A stretch of 40,634 nucleotides of DNA, taken from IMG/VR virus record IMGVR_UViG_2585427727_000015; one strand, written 5' to 3'. The notes beneath the pieces are model-generated. The model ran no database searches. It was not told the DNA's origin and saw only the letters and a program-made list of their open reading frames with translations. Of the stretch, positions 1 through 37,952 are shown piece after piece (within the stretch, counting starts at the first letter, position 1; each line of letters starts with the position of its first letter). Source of the stretch: a virus (lineage: Duplodnaviria; Heunggongvirae; Uroviricota; Caudoviricetes). The translations under genes and the position numbers were made by a program.

Positions 1-1251
1 GTGCTTACCGATACAAAATTAAAAAACCTCAAGCCGCAGGACAAACTGTACAAGGTCTCCGATCGTGACGGGCTGTATGTAGCTGTGCTTACGTCAGGCA
101 CGGTCTCGTTTCGCTATGACTACCGTATCAACGGTCGCCGCGAAACACTGGTAATCGGGCAGTATGGGCGTGACGGTATCAGCCTGGCAGAAGCGCGAGA
201 AGAACTGATTGCTGCAAAGAAGCTGCTTAAAGCAGGCCAGTCGCCGGCTGCGGCTAAACGTGACGGTATCAAAAAGATTCGTGGTGCCGAGACGTTTGCG
301 GTACATACCGACAGTTATATGAAACACGTCATCCTGGCTGACAGTACCCGCGCAATGAAGCAGGCGGTGATCGACCGTGACATACTTCCGGTTCTTGGCA
401 ACAAAATGATGGCTGAAATTACCACATCGATGGTTCGTGATTTGTGTGACCGGATTGTCGAACGCGGTGGTCGGGCAACAGCAGTACAGGCCAGGGAGAT
501 CATCAGCAGCGTATACCGTCACGCCAATGACCGTGGTCATGGTTTGTTTAATCCTGCGGCTGACATTAAACCTTCGTCTATCGCCATATTTAAACCACGA
601 GAGCGAACACTGACACCAGAAGAAATTGGCCTGTTCTTCCGCACGCTGGATGCCATTGGTGCTATGGGCACTATGAAAATGGCTTTAAAGCTGGTGCTTA
701 TCACTATGGTTCGTAAAGGCGAATTCACCAATGCAACGTGGGATGAAATAGATTTTAAAAAATGGACATGGACAATTCCTTCAGACCGCATGAAGGGAAG
801 CCGGGCGCACGTTATTTACCTGCCTAAACAGGCACAGGATATATTGGTTGGGTTGCAGATGTGCGCTGGTGGAAGTGAATATCTGGTTCCTGGTCGTTAC
901 AATTTCCGGAAGCCATTATCTAATGCCGCGCTGAACTCTCTGATCGACAGAACGGTGAAAATAATAAATGAAGATGGTGAGCATATTCAGGGCTTCACCG
1001 TACACGATATGCGCCGTACAGCCAGTACGTTGTTGCATGAGGCTGGTTATCCTTCAGACTGGATTGAAAAGGCTCTGGCACATGAGCAGAAAGGTGTGCG
1101 CGCCGTATATAACAAAGCGGAATACGCCAGACAGCGCGCCTACATGTTGCAGCAGTGGGCCGATATGATTGATTCCTGGATTAACGGGGAGCATACGGAT
1201 CTGATTCCGTTCTCCCCGTCGAAGTTTGAGAAGTGGATGGCGGGGGAATAA
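1..1251 (+). CDS. int: Tyrosine-type phage integrase (site-specific recombinase); starts with GTG at window edge, 5' end may lie upstream
   Basis: 416-aa ORF; N-terminal LTDTKLKNLKP...DGLYV arm-binding-like region and C-terminal HDMRRTAST / Y-containing catalytic region typical of P4/lambda-family integrases; at prophage end. Confidence 0.9.
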   Translation: MLTDTKLKNLKPQDKLYKVSDRDGLYVAVLTSGTVSFRYDYRINGRRETLVIGQYGRDGISLAEAREELIAAKKLLKAGQSPAAAKRDGIKKIRGAETFAVHTDSYMKHVILADSTRAMKQAVIDRDILPVLGNKMMAEITTSMVRDLCDRIVERGGRATAVQAREIISSVYRHANDRGHGLFNPAADIKPSSIAIFKPRERTLTPEEIGLFFRTLDAIGAMGTMKMALKLVLITMVRKGEFTNATWDEIDFKKWTWTIPSDRMKGSRAHVIYLPKQAQDILVGLQMCAGGSEYLVPGRYNFRKPLSNAALNSLIDRTVKIINEDGEHIQGFTVHDMRRTASTLLHEAGYPSDWIEKALAHEQKGVRAVYNKAEYARQRAYMLQQWADMIDSWINGEHTDLIPFSPSKFEKWMAGE

Positions 1252-5838: not shown

Positions 5839-6069
5839 ATGAGCGATAACGGACATTTCGATTTCAAAAAGCACTGGCTTGCACTTACTCCGGATGAGCG
5901 TGAAGCCTTCGCACAGGAAGCCGGAACGACGAGTCACTATATCCAGACTCACTTAACAGGTAAGCGCAAAATGCCAGGTAAAGTATTGATGAATGGGCTT
6001 TTTAAAGCCTGTAAAACAAGGCAATGGCTGCGCTCAAAAGCAGAACTGGCATACTTCTTCTACTCATGA
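5839..6069 (+). CDS. Cro/YdaS-like small HTH regulator
   Basis: 76-aa ORF divergent from repressor across operator region; HTH-like segment QEAGTTSHYIQTHLTGKRK. Confidence 0.6.
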   Translation: MSDNGHFDFKKHWLALTPDEREAFAQEAGTTSHYIQTHLTGKRKMPGKVLMNGLFKACKTRQWLRSKAELAYFFYS

Positions 6070-6090
6070 TATCCAGCTACAACCCTCTGT

Positions 6091-6114
6091 AGACCGCCAC
6101 CCGGCGGTCTTTTC
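6091..6114 (+). terminator. Rho-independent terminator after cro-like gene (tR1-like)
   Basis: Hairpin AGACCGCC-ACCC-GGCGGTCT followed by TTTT. Confidence 0.65.
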
Positions 6115-6124
6115 ATATCTATTC

Positions 6125-6139
6125 GTACCTCAAAGGTAA
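6125..6139. promoter_or_regulatory. Operator-like palindrome GTACC-N5-GGTAA upstream of replication module
   Basis: One-mismatch copy of the TTACC-N5-GGTAA motif, immediately downstream of the tR1-like terminator. Confidence 0.45.
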
Positions 6140-6219
6140 TAAAAAACCAAATCTGGTTGATCTTTTTTTTGTGTCAGCACAAAATGACCGTAATCCCAAT
6201 ACTAATAACAGGGCTTACC

Positions 6220-6420
6220 ATGGAAATCATTACACGTATTGATGCCGCAAAGCGCGGACTTAAACGCTACTACACCGGAAAAACATGTAAGCACGGACAT
6301 GACAGTGAACGCTGGGTTTACAACGGACACTGTGTTGAGTGCACCATGGAATCAAACCGTCGTATCAGGGCAGAGATTAAGCAGATCATGATTAATTCCT
6401 CCCCACAACATTCAAGCTGA
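6220..6420 (+). CDS. Small zinc-ribbon-like protein (66 aa)
   Basis: C-x-HGH...C-x-x-C spacing (CKHGHD...CVEC); ATG 6220 with AGGG SD-like sequence; precedes O-like gene. Confidence 0.4.
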   Translation: MEIITRIDAAKRGLKRYYTGKTCKHGHDSERWVYNGHCVECTMESNRRIRAEIKQIMINSSPQHSS

Positions 6421-6435
6421 TAGCGGAGATTAATC

Positions 6436-7227
6436 ATGAGCAGACATGCAACAGATTGGGCCTGGGAGACAGATCCAGGTAGCTCGTCATTAAAGCTCAT
6501 ACTGCTCTCGATGGCTGACAGAGCCGATGAATATAACCTCTGCTACCCCAGCATAGAACGCCTCGTTAAAGACACTTGCCTGAATAAAAAAACCGTGCAG
6601 GCCGGACTTATATCGCTCATGAAAATGGGGCTTATTTCAGATACCGGAGAGAGAAAGGGAGCGACGAAAAGAGTGCGGGTTTTCTCTCTTAATATAACCA
6701 AAAACGGGAACATTAAAGGCAACCGGGAAGGGGGTAATGAACCCGAAAACGGTAATGTTACCGAAAACGGGAATATACCCAAAAACGGGATGTTGAATGA
6801 TCCCAAAAACGGGATCCAGAACCAGTCATATAACCAGTCATTTAACCAAGAGAGGGAGAGCAGGACAAAAACCGGGGATTCTGTGCCTCATGACCCCGGC
6901 GCAAACAACGCCGTGATGAATAACTTTGTTCCTCCTGGTGGGCCAGGGCAATTAGGCAAATTTGTCATGCATGAACAATGGCACCCATCAGATGACTTTC
7001 TTCGGAAAAGCTCATTGCAGGGGATCTACCTGGACAGTCTGCCAACGGCACAGGAACTTGCAGAGTTCAGAATTTACTGGATGGCTGAGGGTAAGGCATA
7101 CCATCAGGCACAGTGGGAGCAGAAGCTGGCAAGGCGGCTGCAGATTAGCAGACAGAAGCAATCAACATTACCTGATAACAACGTTCCGCACTGGAACAGC
7201 CCTGAAGCATGGGAGGATTTCTTGTGA
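6436..7227 (+). CDS. Replication initiator, lambda O-like (N-terminal DNA-binding domain, iteron-containing middle, C-terminal P-interaction-like region)
   Basis: 263-aa ORF; gene contains 5 iterons encoding NGN-rich repeats; followed by overlapping P-like gene. Confidence 0.7.
   Translation: MSRHATDWAWETDPGSSSLKLILLSMADRADEYNLCYPSIERLVKDTCLNKKTVQAGLISLMKMGLISDTGERKGATKRVRVFSLNITKNGNIKGNREGGNEPENGNVTENGNIPKNGMLNDPKNGIQNQSYNQSFNQERESRTKTGDSVPHDPGANNAVMNNFVPPGGPGQLGKFVMHEQWHPSDDFLRKSSLQGIYLDSLPTAQELAEFRIYWMAEGKAYHQAQWEQKLARRLQISRQKQSTLPDNNVPHWNSPEAWEDFL
6698..6845. repeat. Replication origin: 5 iterons (consensus about CCSAAAACGGGAAT) plus AT-rich segment with 2x AACCAGTCAT
   Basis: AAAACGG cores at 6701, 6746, 6764, 6782, 6806 (spacings 45/18/18/24); direct repeat AACCAGTCAT at 6820 and 6833; located inside O-like gene as in lambda ori. 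Confidence 0.7.
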
Positions 7228-8009
7228 ACAACGTTTTTACCGCGATACAAAACCGTGACGGAGAAGCCCTTTCTCGCATGTCAGGTTATGAGCATCAGTA
7301 CACCAACAATGACAACGTGGTGAACATGTCAGCAGAGAGGCTTGTTGATGCCCTTTTCAAACAGCTGAAACAACTGTTTCCGGCGGCAGTGGTAACCAAC
7401 CTGAAGACGCCAGAGCAGGAAGTCGCTGCAAAACAGCAGTGGATTGCTGCGTTTGCCGAAGGTGGGATCCGAACCCGTGAACAGGTTTCTGCTGGTATGC
7501 GCCACGCCCGCGCCAGTGAATCTCCGTTCTGGCCGTCGCCAGGGCAATTCATCAAGTGGTGCAAAGACAGCAAGATGGTTCTTGGCGTCACCATTGACGA
7601 TGTGATGGCGGAGTTTCACCGGTACAGCAAGGAAAAAAGTTTATATCCTGGTGGTCCCGAAAGATTCCCGTGGCGGCATCCGGTTATGTACTGGGTCGTA
7701 TGTGATACCCGCCGTGCAATGTATCAGCGCCAGCTTAGCGAGATTGAGGTTGAGAAACACGCGCGCAGGCTGCTCGATGATTGGGCGAAAAAGGTGGCTT
7801 CCGGACAGCAGATACCCGATCCGGTGATCAGCATACAGGCAAAGCCAGAGCCCATGAGTACGCCTCCGGACACAGGGAGAGACGTTTACCATCCACCAGG
7901 GCGAAGTTTCGGGTGTATGCCTAACGCCGCTACCCTGGGGGGAATAACACCGGCGCAGTGGCTGATGGAGGAATACAGGCGGGGAAAGGCGGCAGGATTT
8001 ATCAAGTAA
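7224..8009 (+). CDS. Replication protein P-like (helicase loader)
   Basis: GTG start overlapping O stop (GTGA); region SAGMRHARASESPFWPSPGQFIKWCKD closely resembles lambda P NAGMRVARRQNRPFLPSPGQFVAWCRE. Confidence 0.8.
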   Translation: MNNVFTAIQNRDGEALSRMSGYEHQYTNNDNVVNMSAERLVDALFKQLKQLFPAAVVTNLKTPEQEVAAKQQWIAAFAEGGIRTREQVSAGMRHARASESPFWPSPGQFIKWCKDSKMVLGVTIDDVMAEFHRYSKEKSLYPGGPERFPWRHPVMYWVVCDTRRAMYQRQLSEIEVEKHARRLLDDWAKKVASGQQIPDPVISIQAKPEPMSTPPDTGRDVYHPPGRSFGCMPNAATLGGITPAQWLMEEYRRGKAAGFIK

Positions 8010-8080
8010 TACCAGCGCGATAGCGCATTTTTTTACGTCTTGATAATTACCTGTTGAGTAATAAAATATTCTAAAATCTA

Positions 8081-8123
8081 TTGATTTCGTGTCTTATGTG
8101 GTTTTTAATTACCTTAGGGGTAA
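8081..8123 (+). promoter_or_regulatory. Promoter with operator at +1: TTGATT-N17-TTTAAT followed by TTACCTTAGGGGTAA
   Basis: -35 8081-8086, -10 8104-8109, perfect palindrome 8109-8123 directly upstream of ATG 8127; weaker copy TTACCTGTTGAGTAA at 8047-8061. Confidence 0.5.
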
Positions 8124-8126
8124 ATC

Positions 8127-8471
8127 ATGAGAAAACAGATACAGGCTCTTGGTCGACTCAAAACAGGCCAGATGAACAAAACAGAATCTGCGTATTGCCA
8201 GCACCTTGAGCTGCGTAAACGTGCAGGGGAAATCGCCTGGTATCGATTCGAGGGTATCAAGCTGCGGTTAGCTGATAACACGTTCTATACGCCAGATTTC
8301 GCTGTGATGCTCGCCACCGGAGAGATGGAACTGCACGAAGTGAAAGGTTTCTGGACCGACGACGCCAGGGTGAAAACCAAAGTCGCCGCAGATCAATATC
8401 CGTTCCGAATCATCGGGGTAACTGTTAAGCCAAAGAAAGCAGGTGGTGGCTGGAAAATCGAAGAGTTCTGA
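8127..8471 (+). CDS. PD-(D/E)XK-type nuclease, DUF1064-like (putative Holliday junction resolvase)
   Basis: 114-aa ORF with YTPDFAV...ELHEVKG (D...E-x-K) motif. Confidence 0.5.
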   Translation: MRKQIQALGRLKTGQMNKTESAYCQHLELRKRAGEIAWYRFEGIKLRLADNTFYTPDFAVMLATGEMELHEVKGFWTDDARVKTKVAADQYPFRIIGVTVKPKKAGGGWKIEEF

Positions 8472-33176: not shown

Positions 33177-33219
33177 TTACCCTTGAGGTAATAGTACGCT
33201 ATTCACCCCCAGTCTGCAA
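33177..33219 (-). promoter_or_regulatory. Promoter TTGCAG-N17-TACTAT with operator TTACCCTTGAGGTAA at +1
   Basis: Minus-strand -35 at 33214-33219, -10 at 33191-33196, perfect palindrome 33177-33191. Confidence 0.55.
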
Positions 33220-33228
33220 TCTGTACAG

Positions 33229-33255
33229 AATTATTTAAAGGCACATCCCTGTGCC
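33229..33255 (-). terminator. Rho-independent terminator downstream of ant
   Basis: Minus strand GGCACA-GGGA-TGTGCC followed by TTTAAATAATT. Confidence 0.5.
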
Positions 33256-33263
33256 GCCGCCCG

Positions 33264-33920
33264 TCAGAAGAACCCTGCCTTGTCGTTGATGTACTCCGCG
33301 TGCGTCTGGATATCACGCAGGCATTTGCTCACACCAACGATGTAGCAGAACATGGTGGTCAGCTCCGCCGCCGCGCCCGATACGTCATGCCCGTCTTCCT
33401 GTAACTGGTTCAGCAAATTCATCAGCAGTGAGTTCTCCGTCAGGCCGAGAACACCAGACGGCGAATGAATCAGGCTCCGGTAGCCGGGCTTCAGCGGTGC
33501 ACTGTATTCTTTTTTGTCTTCCAGCTTGATCGCCTCCATAATGGCGGGCATGAAGCCTGACAAGACCTTCTCCACTTTTGTTTCTTGTTGTCTTAAACGT
33601 TTCTCGCATTCAATGAAGTAGCGTCGCACCTGGCGACCTTTTTCGTTACGCTCGACCATCGCCAGCTCTTTGGCTGTATCAAGGGTGAGGTGGTACTCTT
33701 TGCGGTTGTGTCCGCCTCTACCAGATGTTTGCTTTCCCAAATTGGAAAGCAAAATATAGTCTTGATTTTCAATGAATTCGTATTCTGAAATGCGATTTGT
33801 AATCCATGCTGCAAACACCTTTTTAACACCTAAAAAAGCGTGCAGATCGCGGGCATTACAAAGTAGGGCTGTTTCGTTAGATATAGTGCCGTTGAATACG
33901 GGGATGAGTTGAGCGTTCAT
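33264..33920 (-). CDS. ant: Antirepressor, AntA/AntB N-terminal domain family
   Basis: 218-aa ORF; N-terminal [39 protein letters not shown]...[27 protein letters not shown] matches the AntA/AntB antirepressor domain pattern. Confidence 0.7.
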
Positions 33921-34078
33921 GATGGCGTCTCCACTTAGCGAATTACATCACCACCGCTGAGACCAATCAGATGGTGGTGAACTGAACGGAGTTGGTCTTA
34001 CCGGCCTAAGTGGTACCGGCGTCCTTTCGGACCCCCATTCAGCCCACCATAATTCTGGCATGACTGTGCTATACGCAT

Positions 34079-34234
34079 AAAAAAACCACGTCTGGCGTGG
34101 TATGCGCCACTTAGTAATCCGGGAGACCAATCCCGGCACTGGATTTTGCCAGTGCCTGATTACTATGGCACAAGAGGAGTGCGATGTAAATTTACCGCAA
34201 AGGTAAATATAAGCACTCCACTTGGTAATTGCAA
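34079..34234 (-). promoter_or_regulatory. Promoter (TTGCAA-N17-TATATT) + operator at +1 (34192-34206) + structured leader + intrinsic terminator (34079-34100) upstream of ant; candidate attenuator or about 120-nt sRNA
   Basis: -35 34229-34234, -10 34206-34211 on minus strand; two-hairpin element 34113-34164; terminator CCACG-CCAGA-CGTGG + T7 at 34079-34100. Confidence 0.45.
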
Positions 34235-34237
34235 ACC

Positions 34238-34495
34238 TTATCTGGTTTGCTTTCGTAATTGTTCGGCACAATAGTCGAGATGTGTTTGCAGATCCTGCAT
34301 AGACATCTGTGAGCTGGTGACGTAGTTAATCAGTGCAGTCAGTTCGGCAAGTGGGCCATCGACATTAAATCCATCCTTATCGAGATCCCGGAGTAATTTC
34401 ATCAAGTGCGATCCCTCCACCAGTGACCTGACGCCTCCCGGCGTGTGAATCCTTTCGGTAAATCCGTCTTCCAGTGGATAGTTATACTGCTGCAT
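34238..34495 (-). CDS. Small protein (85 aa; 90 aa if started at 34510) homologous to the C-terminal domain of the adjacent Ant; LexA-box-controlled
   Basis: HTPGGVRSLVEGSHLMKLLRDLDKDGFNVDGPLAELTAL...MQDLQTHLDYC aligns with Ant residues [39 protein letters not shown]...[11 protein letters not shown]; SD GGAGAAG before ATG 34495. Confidence 0.6.
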   Translation of the reverse strand: MQQYNYPLEDGFTERIHTPGGVRSLVEGSHLMKLLRDLDKDGFNVDGPLAELTALINYVTSSQMSMQDLQTHLDYCAEQLRKQTR

Positions 34496-34517
34496 CTTAA
34501 TCTTCTCCATGCAATAA

Positions 34518-34533
34518 CTGTATATTTATACAG
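34518..34533. promoter_or_regulatory. LexA (SOS) box CTGTATATTTATACAG overlapping the promoter of the Ant-paralog gene
   Basis: CTGT-N8-ACAG with AT-rich spacer, one change from consensus CTGTATATATATACAG; overlaps extended -10-like TGTATAAAT on minus strand, about 20 nt upstream of the ORF. Confidence 0.7.
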
Positions 34534-34572
34534 TAGCAAATAATTTGTTTGCTATCCAGCACGTTTTGCAAA

Positions 34573-34587
34573 TTACCTGAAAGGTAA
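34573..34587. promoter_or_regulatory. Operator-like palindrome TTACCTGAAAGGTAA in divergent region between Ant-paralog gene and tailspike
   Basis: Perfect copy, identical over 17 nt to the site at 15618. Confidence 0.5.
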
Positions 34588-34691
34588 TATCTATTCATAT
34601 TCACAGTCTTTCTATCCATATATGGTTTTTTGGGTAATAGAATAACCAGATATGCGGCGCAACGGGTGCTGCGACTATCTGGAGATTTAAC

Positions 34692-37007
34692 ATGACGGTC
34701 TCAACCGAAGTTGACCACAACGAATACACAGGTAACGGCGTTACGACATCGTTTCCGTATACTTTTCGAATTTTCAGAAAATCAGACCTGGTTGTTCAGG
34801 TGTCTGACCTGAACGGGAACGTAACAGAATTGGTTCTGGATACCGGTTATACGGTAACTGGGGCGGGCACTTATAGTGGCGGTTCAGTGGTTCTGCCGTC
34901 TCCGCTTGCTGCTGGCTGGCGAATTACGATAGATCGTGTGCTTGATGTAGTGCAGGAGACAGATCTTCGCAATCAGGGAAAATTTTTCCCCGAAGTGCAT
35001 GAAGATGCTTTTGACTACCTGACGATGCTGATCCAGCAATGTTTTGGGTGGTTCAGACGTGCATTGATGAAACCATCTTTGCTTGCAAAATATTACGATG
35101 CAAAGCAAAACAAAATTTCTAACCTTGCAGATCCATCACTTGAGCAGGACGCTGTAAATAATCGCTCAATGCGTAATTATGTCGATGCTGCAATCGCCGG
35201 GGTTGTTGGTGGTTTTGGTTGGTTTATTCAGTATGGTTCTGGAGCAGTATACCGAACGTTCCAGGATAAGATGAGAGACACCGTTAGTGTTTGCGATTTT
35301 GGGGCAAAAGGCGATGGTATAACAGATGATACATCTGCATTGATCTTGGCTGCAGAATATGCACGAGAATCATCCAGAACATTACGAGCGGAAGGTAATT
35401 TTATTATTACGGAGACATTAAATCTTCGTAATGTCAGCCTCGAAATGACCAATGCTGTTTTTACCATATCCCACCCAGGAATAGGGGTATTGCTTGGCGG
35501 GAATGCATCAAACCCTAACAACCCAAGACAAAACTTCGGAACGATTATCAGAAATTCTGGTATTTCATCTGAAACGACACCGGATATTCGTATTATCGGG
35601 GCAAAAGGGCAGCATATAAACATTGAGCGTTGCGACTACTTACAGTTATATGCAAATTATAATGCTTCGGTGGCATCGACGGATTATTCAATAGCATACT
35701 CAACCTTTAACCTGAAAAAGGTCGATACAATTCATTTTCTTGGAGTTGAGAAAGGATGGATAAATGAAAACTATTTTTATCTGAATCGTACGAATAATAT
35801 CATTTTCGCTGATAATCCATATCATCATAACCACAATAAGTTTTATGGTGGAACTATGGAGGGGGCAGGTAAAATTGATATTCAAAGAGGTGATAACAAT
35901 TACTTCTACGGGTTTCGTTTTGAACGATATCCATCATCCCAAACTAACCAACAGTTGATAATTAACTTTGGTGAATATACGTGGAATAACTCAATTGAAG
36001 CTACATGGTTAAGTTCTCCTTACTATACAAATGAGCCATACAATCCATCACCTTACACTTATGTCGAGGTAACTGATAATGGCAAGGGGAATGCAGTATT
36101 TCATATTCAGGAAAATATATCCGATGAAGTAACATTGTTTTCTTTAAATGCTAACACCCCATTTATATCCAGTGCTAACAATGGAGAAGTTGGTGTATTA
36201 GCATTTCAAACAGATGTAGATGGTTTATATAATATCCGTCACCTGGTTTCTTCTAAGTTTGCTTTTATGCGGAATTTTGGGTTGTTATGGGAATCTGGAG
36301 ATGTACCAGTAAGAAATGGTGATATGTTTACATTCTCAGCAGATACGGCATCGTTTCGCATTTACCTGTATGCATTAGATGGAGATGGGAATGTCATAAC
36401 TTCACAAACAGAAGCAATAACTTCTTCTATGCAATGGGATTCATCTAACCATAGATATGCTACTGTTGCTAACATTTCTTCCATTAAGATCAGGATTAAT
36501 AATGAAGGGGTTCCAGTTAGTGCAATTCGTTTAGCTGTGTATTCTGGTGGTAATGTAGCGAATACTGCATTTTCATGGCTATGCTTAACTGGTAGATATT
36601 ACAAAAATAGCACATCCTTGCCAAGGAAAAGAAAAGATAACTTCACCTTAAAACAAGGAAAAGCAATTACTTATTATAGTGATACTGATATTAGTATGGC
36701 TAACATTGGTTCAGGAATTACCTGTTATAAAACCGATTTATCTGAACTCAAAATTAATCTTGTAAGGGGCAGGTATGTAGTGAAATCAATTTCAGGCAGT
36801 GAAATATATGTATACCAAGGAACAGTCACTTATTACCCTCCATTCAGTGATATCAAATTGGTATATACGGATGGGGTTGAAAATAAATTATTAGATGTGC
36901 AAAACATCTCTTCAGGAAAGATTACTCTTGCAGATACAGTACCATCAGCTATATCTGCAGGCGATTTTGTAGATGTTATTGTTACAAAGACGAAATCTAT
37001 TTTATGA
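34692..37007 (+). CDS. Tailspike protein (conserved N-terminal particle-binding domain, AT-rich C-terminal receptor-binding domain, likely O-antigen depolymerase)
   Basis: 771-aa ORF; N-terminus MTVSTEVDHNEYTGNGVTTSFPYTFRIF matches (from memory) the N-terminal domain shared by epsilon15/phiV10-type tailspikes; C-terminal two-thirds markedly lower GC. Confidence 0.8.
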   Translation: MTVSTEVDHNEYTGNGVTTSFPYTFRIFRKSDLVVQVSDLNGNVTELVLDTGYTVTGAGTYSGGSVVLPSPLAAGWRITIDRVLDVVQETDLRNQGKFFPEVHEDAFDYLTMLIQQCFGWFRRALMKPSLLAKYYDAKQNKISNLADPSLEQDAVNNRSMRNYVDAAIAGVVGGFGWFIQYGSGAVYRTFQDKMRDTVSVCDFGAKGDGITDDTSALILAAEYARESSRTLRAEGNFIITETLNLRNVSLEMTNAVFTISHPGIGVLLGGNASNPNNPRQNFGTIIRNSGISSETTPDIRIIGAKGQHINIERCDYLQLYANYNASVASTDYSIAYSTFNLKKVDTIHFLGVEKGWINENYFYLNRTNNIIFADNPYHHNHNKFYGGTMEGAGKIDIQRGDNNYFYGFRFERYPSSQTNQQLIINFGEYTWNNSIEATWLSSPYYTNEPYNPSPYTYVEVTDNGKGNAVFHIQENISDEVTLFSLNANTPFISSANNGEVGVLAFQTDVDGLYNIRHLVSSKFAFMRNFGLLWESGDVPVRNGDMFTFSADTASFRIYLYALDGDGNVITSQTEAITSSMQWDSSNHRYATVANISSIKIRINNEGVPVSAIRLAVYSGGNVANTAFSWLCLTGRYYKNSTSLPRKRKDNFTLKQGKAITYYSDTDISMANIGSGITCYKTDLSELKINLVRGRYVVKSISGSEIYVYQGTVTYYPPFSDIKLVYTDGVENKLLDVQNISSGKITLADTVPSAISAGDFVDVIVTKTKSIL

Positions 37008-37041
37008 AGTGTTTATTTATCCTTATGTTAAAGGAGCGATA

Positions 37042-37326
37042 ATGGATATAACGCCTTTCCTTCATGCGTTTTGTGCTGTGGCTGCGCAGGTACTGATTGG
37101 CCTTTTTACCGGAAACTGGGCTTACGGGGCGATAGCCGGTTGTACGTTCTTCATTGCGCGTGAACACACCCAGGCAGAATATCGCTGGATTGAAATGTTC
37201 GGGCATGGCAAGCGTATGAATATGCCGTGGTGGGGAGGTTTTGATCCGCGCGTATGGGATGTTGGAAGCCTGTTTGACTTTGTTGTTCCTGTTACTGTTT
37301 GTTTTGGTGTTTATTTCTATATTTGA
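37042..37326 (+). CDS. Small membrane protein (94 aa), function unknown
   Basis: AAGGAG SD 5 nt before ATG; hydrophobic N- and C-terminal segments; followed by stable hairpin 37333-37353. Confidence 0.55.
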   Translation: MDITPFLHAFCAVAAQVLIGLFTGNWAYGAIAGCTFFIAREHTQAEYRWIEMFGHGKRMNMPWWGGFDPRVWDVGSLFDFVVPVTVCFGVYFYI

Positions 37327-37475
37327 CTGCTACCGCGCCATTTGATGGCGCGGAATTCAACTAAGCCTCTATATTTTAAATAATTTCTGTACTGCAATCT
37401 CTTCAGAGTTATGTAAAAGGCGAGCCTTATTATCGACATCAAAGGCAGGGGATTTACGATGCTAGGGTAACAAAA

Positions 37476-37489
37476 AACCATAAATGGTT
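37476..37489. promoter_or_regulatory. Palindrome AACCATAAATGGTT upstream of lysis cassette
   Basis: Perfect 6-2-6 inverted repeat about 60 bp upstream of holin start. Confidence 0.35.
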
Positions 37490-37547
37490 TATCATGCATG
37501 ATGCTTTATTATTTAGGGGGTCGTTATGCATATAAATGGTGGAAAAT

Positions 37548-37952
37548 ATGTCAGCTCAACTAACCAGTGAAACATTAAATCAGTGGCTTAGCATGAGTTC
37601 TCTGGCGGCGGTGATAGCAGGAGTGCCTCCTGAGGTTGCTTTGGGAGCTTTGGCTGGCGCGGTAATTTTTGTTACCTCTGCGGTAGAGTACCCAATTCGT
37701 CGTCGCGTACTCTTGTCGATGCTTAGTTTTCTCTGCGGACTTCTTTTCTACAAACCAGCAGCATCAATTCTTATCGGCATAGCCAGCCTGATACCTACCA
37801 TCACGCAGGACTCTTTCGAGAAAGGGATTGTTTTCTCTGCTGGCGCATTTGTGTCAGCAATCGTCGCAGTACGAATTGGCATCTGGCTCTATCACCGTTC
37901 CGATAACCCACGCGAGTTAATTCCGGGGAGAAAAGACGATGGTAACGCATGA
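37548..37952 (+). CDS. Putative holin (class with 3 TM segments; alternative upstream start at 37536 gives dual-start motif)
   Basis: Hydrophobic segments, charged C-terminus, GGTGGA SD; located immediately upstream of endolysin. Confidence 0.6.
   Translation: MSAQLTSETLNQWLSMSSLAAVIAGVPPEVALGALAGAVIFVTSAVEYPIRRRVLLSMLSFLCGLLFYKPAASILIGIASLIPTITQDSFEKGIVFSAGAFVSAIVAVRIGIWLYHRSDNPRELIPGRKDDGNA

What the first reader, a model, noticed from the sequence alone, without database searches (positions are those of the whole stretch)
35300..37007. Tailspike with conserved N-terminal module and AT-rich, likely exchanged receptor-binding module
The first roughly 110 residues look like the conserved particle-binding domain, whereas the distal two-thirds has markedly lower GC than the rest of the structural region. 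That pattern indicates horizontal replacement of the receptor-binding/depolymerase domain and determines O-antigen specificity.
Basis: partly seen in the sequence, partly recalled or inferred. Interest (0 to 1): 0.4.

Follow-up and report, generated by a model that had tools for sequence, protein, structure and literature searches.

The report
Mosaic prophage tailspike with swapped receptor module
This is the tailspike gene of a phiV10-like E. coli prophage; its AT-rich distal three-quarters is a cassette shared almost base-for-base with unrelated P22-like and N4-like phages, a well-described kind of receptor-module swapping, though the sugar it targets is still unknown.

Summary
ORF 34692-37007 (+, 771 aa) is the tailspike of a phiV10/epsilon15-type (Uetakevirus) prophage next to yfgI. 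Bases 35301-37007 have 36.2% GC against 48.6% for the window, the lowest-GC stretch of that length anywhere in it.

The exchange is shown directly. The backbone and the first 536-641 nt of the gene are 96-98% identical to phiV10-like phages, none of which has the rest. Window 35301 to about 37005 recurs at 92-98.5% identity in P22-like prophages (Head_binding N-terminus) and in a Pollock-like N4-type lytic phage (Tail_spike_N N-terminus). All three junctions fall at exactly 35301, in a 32-nt block encoding GAKGDGITDDT that is also shared with a different receptor module. The conserved anchor is about 203 aa, not about 110.

The C-module models confidently (pLDDT 89) as a right-handed beta-helix. 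Its nearest characterised relative (30% identity) is the capsule depolymerase of Pasteurella phage PHB02.

The "O-antigen specificity" claim is not established. Twelve lysogens carrying this module have seven different O-antigen gene clusters.

Overall this is an uncharacterised receptor-module subtype within a well-known modular system, so interest is low to moderate.

The parts
34692..37007 (+). Tailspike (receptor-binding protein) gene, 771 aa, of a phiV10/epsilon15-type prophage.
   Evidence: ORF. It sits between the antirepressor-like genes and the holin/GH19 endolysin/DUF2514 lysis cassette, as in phiV10. RefSeq copies at 97.8-99.2% identity in 6 E. coli genomes are annotated 'hypothetical protein'.
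34692..35300 (+). Conserved N-terminal anchor module (aa 1-203). By homology to Dpo31 it comprises a virion-binding beta-sandwich (about aa 8-87), a linker and a coiled-coil neck (to about aa 180).
   Evidence: It is 96-98% nt identical to phiv142-3, EC.W1-9, ZX5 and HEMP4 over gene nt 1-536..641, contiguous with the 97.4%-identical upstream backbone (33177-35332). It matches the first 160-205 positions of 24 PHROG tail families that have different C-termini. phmmer to PDB Dpo31 gives E 1.1e-34 for aa 1-179. Dpo31 domain roles come from PMC13317679. Pas et al. use the first 205 aa of the phiV10 RBP as the Uetakevirus anchor.
35301..35332 (+). A 32-nt junction block, GGGGCAAAAGGCGATGGTATAACAGATGATAC, encoding G-A-K-G-D-G-I-T-D-D-T at the start of the beta-helix. 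It is the probable crossover site.
   Evidence: Similarity to the P22-like copies (L001, L017) and the Pollock-like copy (L018) begins at exactly 35301. Similarity to phiv142-3, which has a different receptor module, ends at 35332, so the block is common to different module types. The only Pfam signal of the protein (PF12708, aa 198-221, below cut-off) lies here.
35301..37007 (+). Exchanged receptor-binding / putative depolymerase cassette (aa 204-771), 36.2% GC.
   Evidence: It is 98.5% identical to L001 (P22-like prophage at argW), 96.8% to L017 (P22-like, next to dacD) and 92.0% to L018 (Pollock-like lytic phage), and is the only segment of the 40.6-kb window shared with those loci. Protein clusters at 93-99% identity carry Head_binding or Tail_spike_N N-termini. 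There is no nucleotide match in 50,697 phage records. AF2 gives pLDDT 89.1.
35301..36113 (+). Right-handed parallel beta-helix part of the cassette (about aa 204-474; the helix may run to about aa 485).
36114..37004 (+). Distal beta-rich C-terminal domains (about aa 475-771), a separately variable sub-module.
   Evidence: These domains are predicted to be all-beta after the helix. In the N1131 variant this part is only 33-53% identical, while the anchor is 93-100% and the beta-helix as far as about aa 390 is 83-100%. Most distant homologues align only to module residues 1 to about 210-430 and have other C-termini.
37042..37326 (+). Small 94-aa hydrophobic ORF immediately downstream (phrog_1443, function unknown). 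It belongs to the Uetakevirus backbone but was carried along with the cassette into one P22-like prophage.
   Evidence: It is annotated in RefSeq copies (L002 8351-8635). PHROG hit E 6.9e-55, with no Pfam hit. It is present downstream of different receptor modules in phiv142-3 (92% from 37045) and N1131 (98% from 37041). In MS14385 the shared segment runs on to 37281.

Best explanation
The gene encodes a modular tailspike, presumably trimeric. Residues 1-203 are the lineage-specific anchor: a beta-sandwich plus coiled-coil neck that fixes the spike to the phiV10/epsilon15-type tail. Residues 204-771 are a portable receptor-binding cassette: a right-handed beta-helix that binds, and most likely cleaves, a host surface polysaccharide, followed by distal beta-sandwich domains.

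The cassette was not inherited with the phage backbone. It was installed by recombination. The left crossover lies in a short conserved block encoding the GAKGDGITDDT motif that opens the beta-helix of many such enzymes (35301-35332). The right crossover lies at or just past the stop codon (37001-37045, or 37281 in one case). The same cassette circulates among temperate Uetakevirus-type and P22-like prophages and a virulent Pollock/G7C-like N4-type phage. Its low GC is typical of this pool of receptor modules and matches the 36% GC of the lytic phage's backbone.

Shown here: the mosaic structure, the junctions, the spread across lineages and the predicted fold. Inferred: trimer formation, enzymatic cleavage and the role in host range. 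The target glycan is not identified. An O-antigen remains the single most likely class (about 0.5), but the lysogens' O-types do not point to one serogroup.
For: The backbone 9700-34691 is 97.5-98.4% identical to phiv142-3, phiV10, PAS61 and O157 typing phages 9/10. The match runs into the tailspike and stops at gene nt 536-641, or window 35332 for phiv142-3.

In E. coli complete genomes, 6 carry the full gene. Nine carry only nt 610-2316 (96.7-98.5%), inside genes annotated as head-binding-domain tailspikes of P22-like prophages. The protein alignment shows 97-100% identity from 'GAKGDGITDD' to the end and 10-33% before it.

A third anchor (Tail_spike_N) is seen in P0004-P0008 at 93-95%. P0008 lies in a contig that is 97.8% identical to phage Pollock outside the cassette. 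Whole-window blastn finds the cassette as the only shared segment, with all three left junctions at 35301.

The published framework, with a 205-aa Uetakevirus anchor and receptor-module transfer among Uetake-, Lederberg- and Gamaleyaviruses, is in PMC10408124.
Against: No enzymatic or binding data exist for this module, and catalytic residues are only guessed from conservation. Pfam recognises no domain above threshold. The monomer model gives low global TM-scores (0.2-0.3) to solved tailspikes, so the domain arrangement is not verified. The GC step (about 35613) does not coincide exactly with the homology junction. The direction of transfer is inferred only for the MS14385 lineage. The heterogeneous O-types of the lysogens argue against the simplest functional reading, in which one cassette equals one O serogroup.
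Confidence: 0.85

Rival explanations
1. The cassette is an O-antigen-specific depolymerase for one serogroup (the best candidates are O166 or the O1/O1-like rhamnose-ManNAc types). The mismatched lysogens would then reflect O-antigen switching or prophage transfer by homologous recombination after lysogeny.
For: O166 is enriched among carriers: 3 of 15 against 18 of 5426 genomes, hypergeometric P = 1.4e-5. It is seen with both the Uetake-type anchor (AST20, JNE070796) and the P22-type anchor (AST240). O1 or the syntenic O1-like cluster is seen in three separate prophage/site combinations: dacD, argW and torT. Uetake- and Lederbergvirus receptor proteins are generally O-specific (PMC10408124). 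The phiV10 O157 module occurs only in O157:H7 genomes (2 of 2).
Against: There are seven different rfb clusters among 12 typed carriers, including the ABC-transporter-type O99, the mannan-type O17/O77 family, O120 and O86. Nearly identical alleles, about 5 aa apart, sit in O166 and O1-like hosts. The three O166 genomes are all Japanese isolates, and two are explicitly O166:H15, so the enrichment may be clonal. The control has n = 2 from one strain pair.
Confidence: 0.4
2. The cassette targets a surface glycan other than the rfb-encoded O-antigen, such as a capsule or exopolysaccharide like colanic acid, ECA or another common polymer. It would therefore work across many O serogroups.
For: The carriers have heterogeneous O-types. 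All inspected carriers have intact-looking colanic acid loci, apart from a frameshifted wcaM in S87. The only characterised homologue acts on a capsule, not an O-antigen. The fold resembles capsule depolymerases and polysaccharide lyases at least as well as O-antigen tailspikes.
Confidence: 0.25
3. There was no exchange: the low GC simply reflects the amino-acid and codon composition of a fast-evolving beta-helix domain inherited vertically within the phiV10 lineage.
For: All Uetakevirus receptor modules examined are AT-rich (0.36-0.42), so low GC alone does not prove transfer.
Against: The same DNA, at 92-98.5% identity, is present in otherwise unrelated phage genomes with sharp junctions. 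It is absent from every phiV10-like phage record that shares 97-98% of the backbone.
Confidence: 0.02

Closest known systems
phiV10 tailspike gp25 (YP_512279.1) / epsilon15 gp20, the Uetakevirus receptor-binding proteins
   Same: Same genome position, between the ant-like genes and the lysis cassette. Same backbone (97.8% over about 80% of 25 kb). Same type of N-terminal anchor, for which Pas et al. use the first 205 aa.
   Different: phiV10's distal module (O157-specific, 875-aa protein) is unrelated in sequence; at DNA level only the first 124 nt of the gene match phiV10. phiV10 has an O-acetyltransferase gene downstream, whereas this window has a 94-aa ORF of unknown function.
Tailspikes of P22-like (Lederbergvirus-type) E. 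coli prophages, e.g. WP_282650561.1 in strain E200086
   Same: Residues from GAKGDGITDD to the C-terminus are 97-100% identical; the DNA is 96.7-98.5% identical.
   Different: The N-terminus is the P22 Head_binding domain (PF09008, aa 1-113). The phage backbone (gp10, ejection proteins, Arc/Ant) is unrelated and the integration sites differ: argW, torT and dacD.
The gp66-type tailspike of Pollock/G7C-like N4-type lytic phages (Gamaleyavirus); here P0008 on contig L018
   Same: The same cassette at 92% nt / 93% aa, with the same left junction at 35301. The backbone GC of 0.36 equals that of the cassette.
   Different: It has a Tail_spike_N (PF18668) anchor and belongs to a virulent phage with a branched two-spike system. 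Phage Pollock itself carries a different module at this position: 85% of L018 is covered, in 2 pieces.
Dep-ORF8 (gp17 tail fibre) of Pasteurella phage PHB02
   Same: It is homologous over 98% of the cassette (30% identity, E 2e-66), so the same beta-helix plus distal-domain architecture is likely. The recombinant protein produces translucent spots on capsulated hosts only (PMC6090149).
   Different: It has a T7-type anchor and is 968 aa. Its host is Pasteurella multocida capsular type A and its substrate is a capsule. The identity is too low to transfer specificity.
Dpo31 tailspike of marine podovirus Carin-1 (PDB 28lx / 8ck1)
   Same: Its N-terminal D1 beta-sandwich and D2 coiled coil align to aa 1-179 (E 1.1e-34). 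D1 contacts the virion base.
   Different: Apart from the GDGxTDD motif, the catalytic domain shows no detectable sequence similarity. Dpo31 has an autocleaved C-terminal D4 domain, which was not examined here.

Membership tests
Uetakevirus (phiV10/epsilon15-type) tailspike | N-terminal anchor of about 205 aa homologous to that of the phiV10/epsilon15 receptor-binding protein | tested here: met
   Aa 1-203 match phrog_1171, phrog_13893 and phrog_5662 over profile positions 1-203/205 (E 1e-109 to 1e-136). Identity to Uetakevirus phages is 96-98% nt.
Uetakevirus (phiV10/epsilon15-type) tailspike | Encoded in a phiV10-like genome, just upstream of the holin-endolysin-Rz cassette | tested here: met
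   The backbone is 97.5-98.4% identical to phiV10-like phages. The gene order matches phiV10. Window position 1 aligns to the phiV10 integrase start.
Beta-helix tailspike depolymerases (pectate-lyase-like fold) | Right-handed parallel beta-helix central domain | tested here: met
Beta-helix tailspike depolymerases (pectate-lyase-like fold) | Homotrimer with polysaccharide-cleaving activity and identified catalytic acidic (or lyase) residues | not testable with these tools
   Only a monomer was modelled. Invariant E359, E390, E411 and D563 and a Y-x-H-N-x-N motif are candidates from the alignment. No assay was possible.
Pfam PF12708 Pect-lyase_RHGA_epim / GH28-related | Score above the Pfam gathering threshold (27 bits) | tested here: not met
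   The score is 18.2 bits, covering only aa 198-221 (the GDGxTDD motif).
P22-type tailspike | N-terminal Head_binding domain (PF09008) | tested here: not met
   The window protein has no hit. The domain is present in the chimeric relatives P0003 and L001.
Serogroup-specific RBP subtype in the sense of Pas et al. 2023 | The same receptor-module subtype found across phage genera by horizontal transfer | tested here: met
   Three lineages share it at 92-98.5% nt.
Serogroup-specific RBP subtype in the sense of Pas et al. 2023 | Hosts or lysogens of all carriers belong to one O serogroup | tested here: not met
   Twelve typed lysogens have 7 rfb types: O166 x3, O99 x2, O17/O44/O73/O77/O106 family x1, O120 x1, O1 x2, an unnamed type x2 and O86 x1. 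Typing rests on PGAP product names, not on serology. Three carriers were not typed.

The most novel reading that the evidence does not exclude
The cassette recognises a receptor that is independent of the rfb-encoded O serogroup, either a common exopolysaccharide or capsule-like glycan or a structural feature shared by chemically different O-antigens. The same spike would then let temperate P22-type and epsilon15-type podophages, and an N4-type lytic phage, enter E. coli of at least seven O-types. That would be an exception to the rule that a prophage tailspike predicts its host's O serogroup.
Probability: 0.2. Interest if true: 0.5.

Novelty: new member of a known kind. Interest (0 to 1): 0.25.

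Why it matters
Tailspike receptor modules decide which strains a phage can infect. They are the parts used to retarget phages, tailocins and diagnostic probes. This locus is a clean worked example with base-pair junctions: one cassette moves between three phage lineages through a 32-nt conserved motif, which is useful as a design rule for chimeric spikes.

The module itself is uncharacterised and is annotated 'hypothetical protein' in RefSeq. Its carriers span seven O-antigen types. Prophage spikes are widely used to predict serogroup specificity, so a documented exception would either expose the limits of that inference or point to a serogroup-independent receptor. Otherwise the finding is ordinary, because the phenomenon is well described (PMC10408124).

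Tried and rejected
1. The first tblastn of the C-module used the wrong reading frame and failed; it was redone in frame from 35301.
2. Searching the 5.8-billion-protein set with the anchor returned mostly truncated proteins from contig ends (124-346 aa). It showed only that the anchor is widespread in Enterobacterales and could not be used to count C-terminal partners; the PHROG scan answered that question instead.
4. I looked for a chemical feature shared by the O166, O99, O120, O86 and O1 antigens. The review PMC7685785 confirms only that O99 is an ABC-transporter homopolymer type lacking GlcNAc/GalNAc. The structures are in figures or supplements not held as text, and the O166 structure could not be retrieved.
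5. Two guesses at the position of the MS14385 rfb locus missed before it was found. Genomes 23CRST013, PEC011 and 100248 were not O-typed.
6. The control with the phiV10 O157 module gave only 2 genomes from one strain pair, which is too few to calibrate how often prophage spikes mismatch host O-type.
7. The promoter/terminator scan of 34200-37600 found nothing above the shuffled expectation, so no transcription-unit claim is made.
8. The idea that the cassette is a colanidase was considered and not adopted: its resemblance to phi92 gp150 is no better than to dozens of other beta-helix enzymes.
Full report
**What is at the coordinates.**
- The finding lies inside one ORF, 34692..37007 on the + strand, 771 aa.
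- Downstream are a small hydrophobic ORF, two holins (PF16931, PF05449), a GH19 endolysin and a DUF2514 Rz-like protein. The host genes yfgI and yfgH follow.
- Window 9700-34691 is 97.5-98.4% identical over 80-86% of its length to Escherichia phages phiv142-3, HEMP4, PAS61, ZX5, phiV10 and O157 typing phages 9/10.
- Window position 1 aligns with the start of the phiV10 integrase gene.
- The window is therefore a phiV10/epsilon15-type (Uetakevirus) prophage next to yfgI, and the ORF occupies the position of the phiV10 tail fibre/tailspike.

**The observation.**
- GC is 0.457 for 34692-35300, 0.362 for 35301-37007 and 0.4855 for the window. Third-position GC drops from 0.419 to 0.276.
- Of all 1707-nt windows (mean 0.485, sd 0.034) only 0.28% are as low. 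They all overlap this locus, with the minimum starting at 35351.
- The maximum-likelihood GC change-point within the gene is at window 35613, about 300 nt inside the exchanged segment.
By itself it is not diagnostic, because the distal modules of other Uetakevirus spikes are also AT-rich: 0.361, 0.372 and 0.418, against 0.45-0.46 for their anchors.

**Direct evidence for exchange.**
- In 50,697 phage records, nucleotide matches to the gene are confined to its first 120-641 nt, at 96-98% for the close relatives. No record covers 80% of it.
- In 5,426 complete E. coli genomes, 504 match some part of the gene and only 6 carry the whole gene (97.8-99.2%).
- Nine further genomes match only gene nt 610-2316 (96.7-98.5%), inside genes annotated 'phage head-binding domain-containing protein'.
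- Those genes lie in P22-like prophages (gp10, ejection proteins, Arc/Ant) at argW/intS, next to torT, or next to dacD.
- The protein alignment shows 10-33% identity before, and 97-100% after, the sequence GAKGDGITDD.
- A search of 5.8 billion proteins with aa 204-771 found the same module at 93-99% identity joined to three N-termini:
  - the Uetake type (771 aa);
  - the P22 Head_binding domain PF09008 (716 aa);
  - Tail_spike_N PF18668 (757 aa).
- It also found 41-49% relatives with further N-termini, including a tail-collar domain in Aeromonas.
- One Tail_spike_N protein lies on a contig that, outside the module, is 97.8% identical to the N4-like lytic phage Pollock.
- Blastn of the whole window against these loci finds a single shared segment in each case: 35301-37005, 35301-37281 and 35301-37001.
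- This meets the finding's own refutation test in its favour: the C-terminal region does not follow the lineage of the N-terminus.

**Junctions.**
- All three foreign contexts begin to match at exactly 35301.
- phiv142-3 has the same backbone and a different distal module. It matches continuously from 33177 to 35332 (97.4%) and resumes at 37045.
- The 32 nt 35301-35332, encoding GAKGDGITDDT, are therefore common to different module types. They are the obvious crossover point. This motif gives the only Pfam signal, below threshold (PF12708, aa 198-221, 18.2 bits against a cut-off of 27).
- The right junction lies at the stop codon (37001-37005). In MS14385 it lies at 37281, inside the downstream 94-aa ORF.
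- That ORF follows different distal modules in phiv142-3 and N1131, so it belongs to the Uetakevirus backbone. Its partial presence in the MS14385 P22-like prophage implies, by inference, that this lineage received the cassette from a Uetake-type phage.

**The anchor.**
- The module shared with the phage lineage is aa 1-203, not about 110.
- It matches positions 1 to about 160-205 of 24 different PHROG tail families, whose total lengths range from 538 to 1084 aa.
- It aligns to the D1-D2 region of the solved tailspike Dpo31 (E 1.1e-34, aa 1-179).
- In Dpo31, D1 is a beta-sandwich (residues 8-87) that contacts the virion, and D2 is a coiled-coil neck (PMC13317679).
- Pas et al. independently use the first 205 aa of the phiV10 protein as the Uetakevirus anchor (PMC10408124).

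**The cassette.**
- With a 32-sequence alignment, AlphaFold2 models aa 204-771 at mean pLDDT 89.1 and pTM 0.73.
- The model is a long run of short strands followed by two beta-rich regions.
- Foldseek aligns it full-length to Klebsiella K2 depolymerases.
- Among viral models the best match is a Pasteurella phage F108 protein.
- Invariant residues across homologues cluster in the helix: E359, E390, E411, Y377/H379/N380/N382 and R409. This is compatible with a glycosidase or lyase site, but that is inference.
- In the phage database the protein-level relatives are Vectrevirus phages (49%), Pasteurella multocida phages PHB02, Pmp1, Pa7 and ZA29 (30%) and F108 (39.5%), and Vibrio phages (28%).
- PHB02's 968-aa gp17 is the tail fibre expressed as Dep-ORF8. 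It clears lawns of all 31 capsular type A strains tested but not of capsule-less mutants (PMC6090149). It is the closest characterised homologue.
- An exhaustive HMMER search of 1.84 billion representatives found 420 clusters (84 at E <= 1e-30). Only about 15 span the whole module; most share just the first 200-430 residues.
- A variant in strains N1131 and 20AR0300 keeps the anchor (93-100%) and the helix as far as about aa 390 (83-100%), but is only 33-53% identical beyond about aa 480. The cassette is therefore itself sub-modular.

**Does it determine O-antigen specificity?** I read the rfb loci of carriers from RefSeq annotation.

| Carrier type | Strains | rfb type |
|---|---|---|
| Uetake-type | JNE070796, AST20 | O166 |
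| Uetake-type | E-1246, fS10a | O99 (wzm/wzt) |
| Uetake-type | PS_131_S11 | O17/O44/O73/O77/O106 family |
| Uetake-type | S87 | O120 |
| P22-type | AST240 | O166 |
| P22-type | E200086, 100117 | unnamed Rha/ManNAc cluster |
| P22-type | MS14385, EC11 | O1 |
| P22-type | W46 | O86, with a wzy pseudogene |

- The unnamed cluster is syntenic with O1 but only 27-60% identical in protein.
- This gives seven rfb types in twelve genomes, and about nine independent combinations of phage, site and host.
- Alleles in O166 and O1-like hosts differ by only about 5 residues.
- O166 is statistically enriched (3/15 against 18/5426, P = 1.4e-5) and occurs with both anchors. O1 or O1-like hosts recur three times.
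- The O166 genomes may be one clone. The chemistry differs widely: O99 is an ABC-transporter type without GlcNAc/GalNAc (PMC7685785).
- The control module, phiV10's O157 spike, occurs only in two O157:H7 genomes from one strain pair. That fits the usual rule but is too small to calibrate it.
- I therefore regard O-antigen specificity as unproven. A single-serogroup target with later O-switching (about 0.4) and a serogroup-independent glycan (about 0.25) both remain open.

**Comparison with what is known, and verdict.**
- The conserved genus-level anchor and the portable receptor module exchanged among Uetake-, Lederberg- and Gamaleyaviruses are described in PMC10408124.
- The gene is present in RefSeq as a hypothetical protein.
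- What this analysis adds:
  - base-pair junctions;
  - the shared 32-nt motif as the likely crossover;
  - the likely direction of one transfer;
  - the sub-modular C-terminus;
  - the mismatch between the module and the lysogens' O-types.
- This is a new, uncharacterised member of a known kind. Interest is low to moderate (0.25). The one point worth following is the serogroup heterogeneity.

Noticed in passing
window 37042-37326 (+): There is a 94-aa hydrophobic ORF of unknown function (phrog_1443, no Pfam hit) directly after the tailspike. This is the slot where phiV10 has its O-acetyltransferase and other converting phages have O-antigen modification genes. It follows different receptor modules in phiv142-3 and N1131. 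Most of it (to 37281) travelled with the cassette into the P22-like prophage of MS14385. It could be a small conversion or exclusion factor.
   Followed up: partly
L003 (N1131) 6001-8301 versus window 34692-37007; break near window 36113: A variant spike in strains N1131 and 20AR0300 keeps the anchor (93-100% aa) and the beta-helix to about aa 390 (83-100%), but is only 33-53% identical beyond about aa 480 (cluster P0010, 130 sequences). This suggests a second, internal exchange point between the helix and the distal domains.
   Followed up: partly
window 35289-35291 (codon 200): The window copy has Cys in '...VSVCDFGAKGDG...', where AST20, N1131 and (in the aligned position) the P22-like copy have Arg. 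This is a private substitution three residues before the junction.
   Followed up: no
window 35323-35337: A short perfect palindrome, CAGATG-ATA-CATCTG, lies inside the 32-nt junction block. The terminator scan flagged it, but hits in the region are not above the shuffled expectation (4 against 2.2 +/- 1.4). It is probably a by-product of the D-D-T-S codons.
   Followed up: no
L001 (E200086, argW) and L024 (100117, torT): Two closely related West African isolates, with identical His and rfb proteins, carry the cassette in two different P22-like prophages at different sites and with different alleles (98.5% and 96.7% to the window). One host lineage therefore acquired it twice.
   Followed up: partly
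L018 3051-13050: The Pollock-like lytic phage contig carrying the cassette has 36.2% GC over 10 kb of lysis, portal and capsid genes. That equals the cassette's GC (0.34-0.36) and is well below the temperate backbones (0.41-0.49). Lytic N4-type phages may be the compositional home of this module pool.
   Followed up: no
L016 49571-50000 (strain W46): The O86 wzy gene of carrier W46 is annotated as frameshifted with an internal stop, so this lysogen may make only short or no polymerised O-antigen.
   Followed up: no
L006 275-5117 (E-1246) and L008 22556-27398 (fS10a): Between gnd and the O99 cluster these strains carry a UbiA-family prenyltransferase, an SMR transporter, an epimerase and a DUF7024 protein. 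This looks like an accessory glycan-modification set.
   Followed up: no
proteins P0040-P0159: Most database proteins matching the anchor are truncated at contig ends (124-346 aa). Short-read assemblies evidently often break inside these tailspike genes, probably because the anchor is repeated among co-resident prophages (up to 4 places per genome).
   Followed up: no
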